A stretch of 12,783 nt of DNA from a virus (Duplodnaviria > Heunggongvirae > Uroviricota > Caudoviricetes): the IMG/VR virus record IMGVR_UViG_2636415418_000003; one strand, 5' to 3'. Numbering within the stretch: position 1 is the first letter of the stretch; each line of letters opens with the position of its first letter. This document shows, piece after piece, positions 1,175-1,879 of this stretch. The notes beneath the pieces were generated by a model that was not told where the DNA came from, did not search any database, and saw only the letters and a list, made by a program, of their open reading frames with translations. Made by a program: the position numbers and the translations under genes.

Positions 1175-1729
1175 CTCTCTAAGAAAATCAATAACTTAGG
1201 TTAAAATACCCAAGAAATTGTATCTTCTAAAATCACATCCAAACGCCTGTGTGTTGTACTGGCTTTGGTATCGTACAACATATGGGCAGGTAGTTACCAG
1301 GCTCAACCCTGTACAGATTTCACTTTGAAGCCGGAAGACGCCGCCAGCGTCTCTAATCCTCATACCAAAACCCTTAGCAAAGTTCCGCGCTTCGTGCGGC
1401 GCTCAATGATGCAACACGTCGTGATGACGTTGCAGAGAATAAACAGGCGTACTGTTGGGAAGACTAACCGGATCGGGAAAGAATCCGGCTCTGCCACGGT
1501 TTCGATCACCGGAGTATAACGATCACCTGATAAGAGAACGTGCTAAGGCTTTAACGTCCCTGTGAAGGGATCACATTACCTGCGGATGTCGCTTCGCTCC
1601 GCCCTTTCTTATGTGCCCAACACGGCACGTAATGGTCACTTATTGCCTTTTGATGTCGAACCCGTTGTAACTTTACATATAACTTGAATGTTTCTTAATC
1701 TGCCTTTGTAACCCACAGGAGGCGCCATC

Positions 1730-1879
1730 ATGAACAAATCAGCAGCAGCTAAACGCAACAATCGCAAAATCCATGCGAGGAAGTTTCTGTCAACCCCAGA
1801 GGGCAAGGCCTGGCTCGAGCGGAAGCAGGCCGAAGAGGCTGAGTTGAAACTTGTCTCTGAGCTAAAGAAGTTTGTCTGA
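1730..1879 (+). CDS. Small basic hypothetical protein (49 aa), not in the ORF track because of its size
   Basis: ATG at 1730 preceded by consensus SD AGGAGG (1717-1722) with 7-nt spacing; translation MNKSAAAKRNNRKIHARKFLSTPEGKAWLERKQAEEAELKLVSELKKFV; stop TGA 1877-1879. Confidence 0.5.
   Translation: MNKSAAAKRNNRKIHARKFLSTPEGKAWLERKQAEEAELKLVSELKKFV

What the first reader, a model, noticed from the sequence alone, without database searches (positions are those of the whole stretch)
1252..1879. Hairpin-dense ~450-nt leader preceding a strongly translated 49-aa basic micro-protein
Between the att core and the micro-ORF there are at least five strong hairpins (for example tgttgtac / gtacaaca at 1252-1280, agacgc / gcgtct, ccgga / tccgg) and no credible ORF. 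The micro-ORF has a consensus AGGAGG SD, unusual for a spurious ORF. This could be a structured regulatory RNA or a toxin/antitoxin-like small gene with a structured 5' UTR.
Basis: seen in the sequence. Interest (0 to 1): 0.45.

Follow-up and report, generated by a model that had tools for sequence, protein, structure and literature searches.

The report
Conserved structured RNA of phage satellite
The "hairpin-dense leader" is a roughly 420-base, evolutionarily conserved folded RNA, absent from Rfam 15, that sits at the tRNA-side edge of a family of small capsid-encoding phage satellites in enteric bacteria and is the exact target of a CRISPR spacer carried by a lytic Klebsiella phage.

Summary
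Observation confirmed. The 49-aa ORF with an AGGAGG Shine-Dalgarno is a real gene under purifying selection.

Window ~1240-1652 (+) is one conserved structured RNA module. It has a 5' domain of three hairpins and a ~270-nt 3' domain with long-range helices, a multi-way junction and a candidate pseudoknot.

- Across 25 representatives from about 15 Enterobacterales genera, 97.7% of pair cells are paired, against 32-44% in slid controls.
- 17 pairs show compensatory changes, against 0-2 in controls.
- G-U bias points to the + strand. There is no codon periodicity and no Rfam match.

The module always lies ~60-100 nt downstream of, and co-oriented with, a host tRNA gene or tRNA-fragment att site (Thr, Gly, Ala, Leu). 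It sits at the edge of ~12-13 kb islands that carry a capsid-E-like gene and a distal integrase.

The micro-ORF follows only two of the three RNA lineages. In the third, downstream genes vary and are sometimes convergent. The RNA is therefore a module in its own right, not simply that gene's leader.

Klebsiella phage KP13-16 carries a mini-CRISPR spacer identical to window 1515-1547, with a GAG PAM.

Function is unknown. My best inference is a stand-alone satellite RNA expressed by read-through from the tRNA promoter.

The parts
1132..1175 (+). 3' fragment of tRNA-Thr(CGT) (thrW), the att core and left boundary of the island. No complete tRNA is present in the window, so the island sits second in a tandem array.
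   Evidence: Aligns base for base with the 3' part of intact thrW in E. coli loci. ARAGORN finds no tRNA in the window. The same fragment lies upstream of the RNA in most IMG/VR loci.
1187..1199 (+). IHF-consensus-like site AATCAATAACTTA (WATCAANNNNTTR), probably part of the attP/attL arm at the DNA level.
   Evidence: Read from the sequence. AAATCAAnnAGTTA recurs directly after the att core in Thr-, Gly- and Ala-class islands. The consensus itself comes from my own knowledge.
1245..1287 (+). H1, a long bipartite hairpin of the RNA 5' domain.
   Evidence: Inverted repeat I1. It folds at -18.1 kcal/mol with z = -4.0. The same long hairpin forms in nearly all of the 22 distinct homologues (less clearly in L058 and L063), with quite different stem sequences such as GCCGUUAUGG.../...CUGUAACGG and GCCACAG/CUGUGGC. 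A3 pairs 18-23/59-64 show many compensatory changes.
1287..1311 (+). H2, a short stem (CAGG/CCUG) closing a conserved loop UAGUU...CUCAA.
   Evidence: A3 columns 68-71/89-92 and A6 columns 70-72/90-92. Pair types include CG, GC, AU and UA, with 8-12 double changes per pair.
1336..1352 (+). H3 hairpin AGACGC/GCGUCU, followed by the conserved CUAA.
   Evidence: Read from the sequence. The stem covaries as GACG/CGUC versus GAGU/ACUC. Gly-class islands carry a different hairpin here.
1379..1652 (+). The conserved 3' domain of the RNA.

- Candidate pseudoknot hairpin: 1387-1390/1399-1402.
- P1 (long range): 1393-1397/1625-1629.
- P5 (GUGA-loop hairpin): 1417-1420/1426-1429.
- P2 (long range, GUUGGG/CCCAAC): 1454-1459/1616-1621.
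- P3 (loop GGGAAAG): 1468-1474/1481-1488.
- P4 (long hairpin with GAUAAGAGA): 1489-1536.
- Lineage-specific hairpins: 1558-1569 and 1582-1602.
   Evidence: Covariance model R1 gives 207.5 bits, E = 2.9e-65, full length, and is the only hit in the window. RNAalifold and pair counts support the helices. G-U pairs number 40 against 8 A-C, which favours the + strand. GC is 0.47-0.53, against 0.31-0.37 in the neighbouring cargo.
1512..1547 (+). Protospacer (1515-1547) with a 5' GAG PAM (1512-1514). It is matched exactly by spacer 1 of the mini-CRISPR array of Klebsiella phage KP13-16.
   Evidence: BLAST hit of 35/35 nt. The array was read in L007 2973-3110. The spacer matches 29 loci, including the window, with 0 mismatches. 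The functionality of the PAM comes from my own knowledge of type I-E.
1717..1722 (+). Shine-Dalgarno AGGAGG of the micro-ORF.
   Evidence: Read from the sequence. It lies 7 nt before the ATG.
1730..1879 (+). Micro-ORF encoding a 49-aa basic protein, with the near-invariant core KRNNRKIHARKFLxTPEGKAWLERK. It is predicted to be a two-helix hairpin. It is a lineage-specific neighbour of the RNA.
   Evidence: 71 homologous clusters, all in Enterobacterales and all annotated 'hypothetical'. Differences by codon position are 561/459/2203, and synonymous versus non-synonymous changes are 1740 versus 660. AF2 gives pLDDT 89.8 with helices 3-21 and 23-48. There is no Pfam, PHROG, PDB or Foldseek match.

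Best explanation
Window ~1240-1652 (+ strand) encodes a member of an apparently undescribed family of ~380-460-nt structured RNAs. The RNA is a core module of a family of ~12-13 kb integrative, capsid-E-encoding phage-satellite-like islands of Enterobacterales.

**Shown**
- The sequence is non-coding.
- Its helices, including two long-range ones, are kept by compensatory changes.
- The + strand is the folded strand.
- It lies at a fixed place: just inside the island edge, downstream of and co-oriented with the host tRNA gene used as att site, and opposite the integrase end.
- It co-occurs with the satellite capsid gene.
- It does not depend on which gene follows it.

**Inferred mechanism**
- It acts as a stand-alone folded RNA, probably as a ribonucleoprotein or an RNA-only assembly. 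Its invariant loops and junctions (GGGAAAG, GAUAAGAGA, AUAAAC) would be the contact surfaces.
- It is not the 5' UTR of the micro-ORF.
- In the integrated state it is transcribed by read-through from the host tRNA promoter and released by tRNA 3' processing. The satellite would therefore make it constitutively without a promoter of its own.
- It is needed for the satellite's interaction with its helper phage.
- The basic micro-protein, present in two lineages, is an accessory and possibly an RNA-binding partner.

Identity as a conserved structured RNA: about 0.9. Stand-alone or trans-acting role: about 0.45. tRNA read-through expression: about 0.4.
For: **Homologues**
- The element is found in 524 of 5426 E. 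coli genomes, 40 IMG/VR loci and 24 species-representative genomes from about 15 genera.

**Structure**
- 48 predicted pairs, 24 of them compensatory.
- In the 3' domain, 97.7% of cells are paired against 32-44% in slid controls. 17 pairs carry double changes against 0-2. The covariation score is 0.301 against 0.02-0.08.
- The lineages are only 57-68% identical in sequence.
- G-U versus A-C pairs: 40 versus 8.
- No codon periodicity.

**Specificity**
- Model R1 hits once per locus, always on the tRNA strand.
- There is no Rfam family for any of the three lineages.

**Context**
- The distance from the att core is constant.
- The att sites are four different tRNAs.
- In loci fetched through the capsid gene, independently of the RNA pattern, 16 of 16 with enough upstream flank hold the RNA 6.5-8.3 kb upstream on the same strand.
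- The micro-ORF is absent from most type C loci. There the next gene varies or is convergent.
- No + strand terminator and no sigma-70-like promoter lies between the tRNA and the start of the RNA in the window, L066, L004 or L001. In L066 a strong promoter-like site lies upstream of the tRNA, and one weaker 9-of-12 + strand match lies inside H1.
- A phage spacer matches the most conserved hairpin exactly in all 29 type A loci.
Against: - There are no transcription data. The strand and the very existence of the RNA rest on covariation and G-U bias.
- No terminator follows the RNA. In types A and B a well-translated gene follows on the same strand, which also fits a long leader.
- In the window itself only a 44-nt tRNA fragment lies upstream, so no tRNA promoter is available there.
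- Loci were retrieved with a pattern that required GGGAAAG, GCTCT and GATAAGAGA. The invariance of those motifs is therefore partly by construction. The divergent variant L080 lacks two of them.
- The sequences fall into about three main lineages plus sub-types, so the number of independent compensatory events is smaller than the cell counts suggest.
- The 5' and 3' domains are shuffled between lineages (L037 versus L080). They may be two elements rather than one RNA.
Confidence: 0.55

Rival explanations
1. The element is a cis-acting structured leader. The RNA is the 5' untranslated part of the rightward satellite transcript. It gates transcription elongation or translation of the micro-ORF and downstream genes, comparable to the processed leader/CI RNA immunity of satellite P4 or to processive antitermination RNAs.
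For: - It has the same strand as the micro-ORF, with no terminator between them.
- The micro-ORF follows 75-90 nt after the model end in every type A and B locus.
- The RNA is the first feature of the rightward gene string in all islands.
- No protein repressor gene is evident next to it.
Against: - Most type C RNAs lack the micro-ORF.
- The next gene differs between loci, or is convergent in L051, L066 and L011.
- No conserved terminator/antiterminator alternative pairing was seen.
- The size and number of helices exceed those of known cis-regulators.
Confidence: 0.25
2. The element works at the DNA level: an attP arm with integrase/IHF/Xis sites, a packaging (cos/pac) site, or a single-strand origin whose hairpins form in DNA.
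For: - It lies directly next to the att core.
- An IHF-like site and palindromes occupy the first ~60-100 nt.
- The 5' domain travels with the att/integrase class.
- Covariation alone cannot distinguish RNA from single-stranded DNA.
Against: - Helices pair segments 160-235 nt apart and enclose a multi-way junction.
- G-U (G-T) pairs are common on one strand only.
- No repeated arm-type motifs are present.
- The same 3' domain occurs with four att classes and different integrases.
- The putative iteron origin lies elsewhere, at 5324-5930.
Confidence: 0.07
3. The element is a guide (bridge-like) RNA. It would supply DNA recognition to a recombinase, for instance the 188-aa catalytic-domain-only tyrosine recombinase at 3524-4090 or the distal integrase.
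For: - It lies at the element end next to the recombination site, as bridge RNAs and omega RNAs do.
- It has a variable 5' domain and a constant 3' scaffold.
- The small recombinase matches only the Pfam catalytic domain over residues 10-178.
Against: - The longest identical or complementary k-mers between each RNA and its own att class (5-8 nt) are no longer than those with foreign classes (5-9 nt).
- Islands with the same att carry three or more different 5' domains.
- Type B islands have the RNA but no annotated small recombinase or comparable ORF.
- A full-length integrase with SAM-like and arm-type N-terminal domains is present.
Confidence: 0.03
4. The element is a toxin-antitoxin-like module in which the micro-protein is a toxin controlled by the structured upstream RNA.
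For: A small ORF with a strong Shine-Dalgarno lies next to structured RNA.
Against: - The protein is hydrophilic, basic and helical, not membrane-like.
- It is conserved under purifying selection in 71 clusters.
- The RNA exists without it in most type C loci.
- There are no repeats of the ToxI kind.
Confidence: 0.03

Closest known systems
ROOL and GOLLD RNAs, large ornate bacterial ncRNAs found in phages and prophages, often next to tRNA genes (own knowledge)
   Same: It is a large (>400 nt), multi-helix RNA supported by covariation. It is carried by a phage-related mobile element, lies beside a tRNA gene, has no linked protein and has no known function.
   Different: It matches neither Rfam model, nor any other. 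It is found in Enterobacterales satellites rather than Firmicutes or rumen phages. The tRNA here is the host att-site gene, not a phage tRNA. Multimer or cage formation was not tested.
P4 satellite CI RNA / immunity leader (C4 antisense RNA family; own knowledge)
   Same: It is a satellite-encoded RNA lying in an untranslated leader ahead of the satellite's genes. It gives a precedent for RNA-based control in a satellite.
   Different: There is no Rfam C4 match. The element is far larger. No seqA/seqB/seqC-type internal complementarity was identified. The island lacks P4 hallmark genes in the Pfam scans.
IS110 bridge RNA and IscB/TnpB omega RNAs
   Same: It is a structured RNA encoded at the very end of a mobile element, beside the recombination site, with a variable part and a constant scaffold.
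   Different: No complementarity to the att sites was found. The associated integrase is a normal full-length tyrosine recombinase. The size and fold are unrelated.
ICP1 phage CRISPR-Cas against the Vibrio cholerae PLE satellite (own knowledge; PLE biology in PMC8096241 and PMC10945586)
   Same: A lytic phage carries CRISPR spacers directed against a chromosomal satellite that parasitises it.
   Different: Here the phage carries only a mini-array of two spacers with type I-E-like repeats, next to a TnpB/Cas12f-like gene. It does not carry a full type I-F system. The target is the satellite's non-coding RNA gene. Interference was not tested.
Rop (ColE1) and arginine-rich N-type peptides, for the micro-protein only (own knowledge)
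   Same: It is a very small basic helical-hairpin protein encoded next to a structured RNA.
   Different: There is no sequence or Foldseek similarity. RNA binding was not tested. The protein is absent from most of the RNA family.

Membership tests
Any Rfam 15 family | Covariance-model score at or above the family's gathering threshold | tested here: not met
   There were no gathering-level hits in the whole window. At E<=10 only noise appeared (mir-2566, Vax2os1) in 1050-2000. Types B and C gave only the neighbouring tRNA.
Cis-regulatory leader / riboswitch-like element | Constant downstream gene on the same strand, plus an expression platform (terminator or Shine-Dalgarno-sequestering alternative) | tested here: not met
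   The downstream gene varies in identity and orientation. No + strand terminator-like site follows the RNA in four loci.
Bridge/guide RNA of a recombinase | RNA segments complementary to the target and donor core sequences, changing with the target | tested here: not met
   Own-class matches (5-8 nt) do not exceed cross-class matches (5-9 nt) for the Thr, Gly, Ala and Leu att classes. Short split guides are not excluded.
Type I / type III toxin-antitoxin | Small hydrophobic toxin with an antisense RNA, or a repeat-array RNA antitoxin | tested here: not met
   The protein is a basic soluble two-helix hairpin. There are no tandem repeats. The RNA occurs without the ORF. Toxicity was not tested.
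Capsid-forming PICI (cf-PICI) | The satellite encodes its own capsid plus portal, protease, head-tail connectors and small terminase | tested here: not met
   A capsid-E-like gene is present (PF03864). No portal, protease or terminase family was found by Pfam in the larger window ORFs scanned (10 ORFs) or in the nine larger ORFs of the complete E. coli island L074. Smaller ORFs, including window 8768-9052, 9373-9690 and 9677-10027, were not scanned with Pfam, and remote homologues are not excluded.
P4-like satellite | Alpha primase-helicase, sid/psu/delta and the CI RNA | tested here: inconclusive
   No such Pfam or PHROG assignments and no C4 RNA were found. No dedicated P4 profiles were run.
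CRISPR target (protospacer) | Full-length spacer identity plus a compatible PAM | tested here: met
   33/33 identity at 1515-1547, with GAG immediately 5'. Whether GAG is permissive in the relevant host system comes from my own knowledge and was not tested.
Conserved structured RNA (general criterion) | Helices maintained by compensatory substitutions beyond controls, on one strand, with no coding signal | tested here: met

The most novel reading that the evidence does not exclude
The RNA is the key functional molecule of an undescribed family of capsid-encoding satellites. It would be a trans-acting ornate RNA or RNP, made constitutively by piggy-backing on the host tRNA promoter, that mediates hijacking of or interference with large lytic helper phages (Stephanstirmvirinae/Vequintavirinae-like). 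Those phages would in turn have acquired CRISPR spacers aimed precisely at it.
Probability: 0.3. Interest if true: 0.8.

Novelty: new variant of a known kind. Interest (0 to 1): 0.62.

Why it matters
Large, intricately folded bacterial RNAs are rare. Historically they have turned out to be ribozymes, RNP scaffolds or RNA-only assemblies.

- **A tractable example.** This one occurs in E. coli and Klebsiella, where genetics is easy. About 10% of complete E. coli genomes carry it.
- **A marker for an unclassified element.** It is the best conserved non-coding feature of a satellite-like element that fits none of the four classified satellite families tested here.
- **An expression strategy.** Its position, always downstream of and co-oriented with a host tRNA gene, suggests that a mobile element borrows a tRNA promoter for an RNA.
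- **A natural arms race.** The exact phage-borne CRISPR spacer links it to a conflict between large lytic phages and a chromosomal parasite. It also names a candidate helper and an experimental system.

For annotation, the element marks the boundary of these islands and could be added to RNA family libraries.

Tried and rejected
- **Known RNA family.** Rfam scans of the window and of type B and C loci found nothing.
- **Degenerate coding region.** There is no codon periodicity, and indels are not in multiples of three.
- **Guide RNA for integration.** A k-mer identity and complementarity test between each RNA and the four att classes was negative.
- **T-box-like or specifier reading of the att tRNA.** By eye, no consistent codon was seen in the H1 loops. 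This was not pursued.
- **CsrA-sponge idea.** By eye, GGA motifs occur at about the chance frequency. Dropped.
- **GAAA tetraloop/11-nt receptor (CCUAAC/UAUGG).** Seen by eye in only some type C sequences. Not conserved.
- **Resemblance of GUUCC-hairpin ... AUAAAC to a type I-E CRISPR repeat (RNA anti-CRISPR idea).** The order and spacing do not match a repeat. Left as unexplained.
- **Structure-aware alignment of the 5' domain.** mafft-qinsi was unavailable, and RNAalifold on the MAFFT alignment recovers only H2. H1 and H3 are supported by per-sequence folds, not by a formal column-wise count.
- **Spacer 2 of KP13-16 and both KE23 spacers.** No match in the window or in any fetched locus.
- **Literature.** Seven full-text searches found no description of this RNA, of the island family or of the phage array. 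I did not establish whether the E. coli O157 Sakai prophage 'Sp1' is this element.
- **Metagenome scan.** Not used.

Full report
**1. Observation**

- An inverted repeat with 15-nt arms lies at 1245-1259/1273-1287 and includes tgttgtac/gtacaaca.
- agacgc/gcgtct lies at 1336-1341/1347-1352.
- ccgga/tccgg lies at 1469-1473/1484-1488.
- AGGAGG lies at 1717-1722, 7 nt before the ATG of a 49-aa basic ORF at 1730-1879.

Immediately upstream, 1132-1175 is the 3' part of tRNA-Thr(CGT). There is no complete tRNA in the window.

Single-sequence folding is only modestly better than shuffles: z = -2.0 and -2.1, and z = -4.0 for the first hairpin alone. One sequence would not settle the matter.

**2. Homologues**

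- The stretch 1180-1551 has relatives in 524 of 5426 complete E. coli genomes. There it lies directly after intact thrW and before an annotated 52-aa hypothetical gene.
- One E. coli island at a tRNA-Gly gene holds a more distant copy.
- A degenerate pattern from three conserved motifs retrieved 40 IMG/VR loci. It also retrieved 24 true loci among species-representative genomes. These include Klebsiella relatives, Citrobacter, Enterobacter, Kluyvera, Pantoea, Mixta, Buttiauxella, Pluralibacter, Franconibacter, Biostraticola, Acerihabitans and others.
- The window itself is from Klebsiella or a close relative: its micro-protein is 100% identical to proteins recorded in Klebsiella pneumoniae.
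- Three main sequence lineages (A, which includes the window; B; and C), plus sub-types, are 57-68% identical in the 3' domain.

**3. It is a structured, non-coding element**

- RNAalifold on 25 representatives predicts 48 pairs, 24 of them with compensatory changes. Two helices pair segments about 160-235 nt apart.
- I named a structure of 43 pairs in 9 helices for the 3' domain. In it, 97.7% of pair cells form standard pairs, against 32-44% when the 3' partners are slid by 1-3 columns. 17 pairs have changes on both sides, against 0-2. The covariation score is 0.301, against 0.02-0.08.
- G-U pairs outnumber A-C by 40 to 8, so the + strand is the folded one.
- Substitutions show no three-base periodicity: 23775/25829/22801.
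- GC is 0.47-0.53 inside an island whose cargo is 0.31-0.37.
- A covariance model of the 3' domain (R1; 248 positions, 39 pairs) hits each locus once, on the tRNA strand, at 180-278 bits. The exceptions are the two weaker copies in L052 (119 and 85 bits). The window scores 207.5 bits at 1379-1652.
- No Rfam 15 family matches any lineage.

*Caveats*
- The retrieval pattern required GGGAAAG, GCTCT and GATAAGAGA, so the invariance of those motifs is partly by construction.
- The stems were not part of the pattern.
- An independent, capsid-anchored retrieval found the same RNA, plus a divergent variant (L080, 49 bits). That variant lacks two of the motifs but keeps P2 through new compensatory changes, GGUGGU/ACCACC.
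- The number of independent lineages is limited.

**4. Anatomy in window coordinates**

*5' domain*
- H1: 1245-1287
- H2: 1287-1311
- H3: 1336-1352

H1 forms as a long bipartite hairpin in nearly all of the 22 distinct homologues, with widely different stem sequences. H2 has 8-12 double changes per pair.

*3' domain*
- A 4-bp hairpin lies at 1387-1390/1399-1402. Its loop (1393-1397) pairs with 1625-1629 (P1). Both pairings covary, so this is a candidate pseudoknot.
- P5, with a GUGA loop: 1417-1429.
- The invariant junction AUAAAC.
- P2, GUUGGG/CCCAAC: 1454-1459/1616-1621.
- P3, with loop GGGAAAG: 1468-1488.
- P4: 1489-1536, containing the invariant GAUAAGAGA.
- Lineage-specific hairpins: 1558-1569 and 1582-1602.

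The 5' domain is much more variable than the 3' domain and travels with the att class. L037 and L080 share a 5' domain but have different 3' domains, so the two domains recombine.

**5. Context**

Complete E. coli examples show a ~12-13 kb island with this order:
1. tRNA
2. the RNA
3. the micro-ORF (in some lineages)
4. variable cargo
5. a 185-188-aa catalytic-domain-only tyrosine recombinase (in some)
6. a ~1.5-2 kb AT-rich non-coding stretch and a replication gene (a DEAD helicase or an HTH protein)
7. small ORFs
8. a capsid-E-like gene
9. a long coiled-coil protein
10. a Dit-like protein (in some)
11. a full-length integrase on the opposite strand
12. attR

The window shows the same order up to the coiled-coil protein.

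No portal, protease or terminase was found in the larger ORFs scanned with Pfam. The element therefore looks like a phage satellite outside the P4, PICI, cf-PICI and PLE definitions.

The att sites are tRNA-Thr(CGT), Gly(CCC), Ala(GGC) and Leu(CAA). The RNA core motif always lies 300-340 nt after the tRNA end, on the tRNA strand. An IHF-consensus-like site follows the core directly, at 1187-1199.

In the window, L066, L004 and L001 the consensus scans find no + strand terminator between the tRNA end and the end of the RNA. They also find no sigma-70-like + strand promoter between the tRNA and the start of the RNA. In L066 an 11-of-12 promoter-like site precedes the tRNA, and one weaker 9-of-12 + strand match lies inside H1.

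**6. The micro-ORF**

It is a real gene.
- It has 71 homologous clusters, all in Enterobacterales and all annotated 'hypothetical'.
- Differences are concentrated at third codon positions (561/459/2203), with 1740 synonymous against 660 non-synonymous codon differences.
- AlphaFold predicts a two-helix hairpin with pLDDT 89.8.
- It has no Pfam, PHROG, PDB-sequence or Foldseek relative.
- Its N-terminal helix is arginine/lysine-rich.

It follows every type A and B RNA. Among about 20 distinct type C RNAs only two have it, and in those it is degenerate or displaced. There the next gene differs or is convergent. The RNA is therefore not defined by being this gene's leader.

**7. A phage targets it**

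Klebsiella phage KP13-16 (Stephanstirmvirinae, 137 kb) has a mini-array of three type I-E-like repeats (GTGTTCCCCACATGCGTGGGGATAAACCG) downstream of its tRNA cluster. Its first spacer is identical to window 1515-1547, in the apical half of P4. GAG lies directly 5' in the window. The spacer matches all 29 type A loci without mismatch.

The array lies between a promoter-like site followed by a ~250-nt conserved non-coding stretch and a 419-aa TnpB/Cas12f-like gene. Salmonella phage KE23 (Vequintavirinae) has the homologous locus with other spacers.

This is circumstantial evidence that the island is in conflict with such phages. It also shows that the RNA gene is their conserved target.

**8. 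Mechanism**

*Shown.* This is a conserved, + strand, non-coding fold. It sits at a fixed position at the tRNA-proximal edge of a capsid-encoding satellite-like island and does not depend on the downstream gene.

*Inferred, and my committed reading (about 0.45).* It is a stand-alone structured RNA that acts through its tertiary fold or through bound proteins in the satellite's life cycle. It is expressed in the lysogen by read-through from the tRNA promoter. The micro-protein is an accessory, possibly an RNA-binding one.

*Rivals*
- A cis-acting leader that gates the rightward operon (0.25).
- A DNA-level att, packaging or origin element (0.07).
- A recombinase guide (0.03). There is no class-specific complementarity, and type B islands have no annotated small recombinase or comparable ORF.
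- A toxin-antitoxin module (0.03).

**9. Comparison and novelty**

In kind it is closest to ROOL and GOLLD, which are large phage-associated RNAs near tRNA genes with unknown function. By position it is closest to the P4 leader/CI RNA and to element-end RNAs such as bridge and omega RNAs. It is a member of none of them. Seven literature searches found no description.

I rate it a new variant of a known kind: a new large structured RNA class with a distinctive satellite and tRNA context.

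Noticed in passing
L007 2690-4397 (Klebsiella phage KP13-16, OP617741.1 about 19083-20790): The phage locus has four parts in order: a promoter-like TTGACT-17-TAAAGT site, a ~250-nt conserved non-coding stretch, a mini-CRISPR array (3 type I-E-like repeats and 2 spacers), and a 419-aa TnpB/Cas12f-like gene (PF07282, PF01385). Spacer 1 equals window 1515-1547. It is unclear whether the array works with host Cascade or with the adjacent TnpB-like protein.
   Followed up: partly
L098 400-900 (Salmonella phage vB_SEnST11_KE23, PP856722.1 about 34130-34630): This is a locus homologous to the KP13-16 one, in a Vequintavirinae phage. The upstream non-coding stretch is 78.5% identical. 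It has three similar repeats and two different spacers, followed by an annotated 'transposase'. Its spacers match none of the fetched loci.
   Followed up: partly
window 3524-4090 (-): A 188-aa tyrosine recombinase whose only Pfam match is the catalytic domain (PF00589, residues 10-178). There is no room for a core-binding domain. It is conserved in type A and some type C islands and is followed by 1.5-2 kb with little coding capacity. Its role is unknown. The island has a separate full-length integrase in complete examples.
   Followed up: partly
window 5324-5930: 26-nt inverted repeats (81% complementary) bracket a 555-nt AT-rich stretch full of iteron-like copies of ACTATTAAC/CATAGTTAATAA, upstream of the DEAD-box helicase gene (6518-8002). 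This is probably the island's replication origin.
   Followed up: no
window 1-1131: The sequence left of the tRNA fragment is not the proA-thrW chromosome context. It encodes a 4-fold beta-flower protein (365-796, -). The window's island is therefore the second element of a tandem array at thrW, as in many IMG/VR loci.
   Followed up: partly
window 1979-2680 (+) and 2741-3028 (-): These are cargo genes just after the micro-ORF: a DUF2971 protein, and a 95-aa ORF with a weak, sub-threshold ribosome-modulation-factor-like motif (E = 0.0016). This slot holds different genes in every island, for example ImmA/IrrE in L075. It may be an accessory or defence hotspot.
   Followed up: no
window 9677-12783: The structural module contains a 116-aa ORF, a capsid-E-like gene (10069-11109), a 67-aa ORF and a long Gln/Ala/Lys-rich coiled-coil ORF starting at 11480 that runs off the window. 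Complete E. coli islands add a Dit-like tail protein. No portal, protease or terminase was found in the ORFs scanned with Pfam (the 116-aa and 67-aa ORFs were scanned only against PHROGs). This is an unusual gene set for a satellite.
   Followed up: partly
L052 6323-7423 (Buttiauxella MAG): There are two diverged copies of the RNA 3' domain in tandem (119 and 85 bits). The first begins only 43 nt after tRNA-Thr and has no 5' domain. These look like decaying or rearranged islands.
   Followed up: no
L037 780-1173 versus L080 150-566: These two loci have nearly the same 5' domain and the same tRNA-Gly att. Their 3' domains are very different (260 versus 49 bits). The two halves of the element are therefore exchanged by recombination.
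   Followed up: partly
L001 5086-5125 (-): Two overlapping sigma-70-like sites on the minus strand lie between the att core and H1, pointing towards the att site. In the excised circle they would face the integrase gene. The integrase promoter may therefore be reconstituted only after excision. No equivalent site was found in the window.
   Followed up: no
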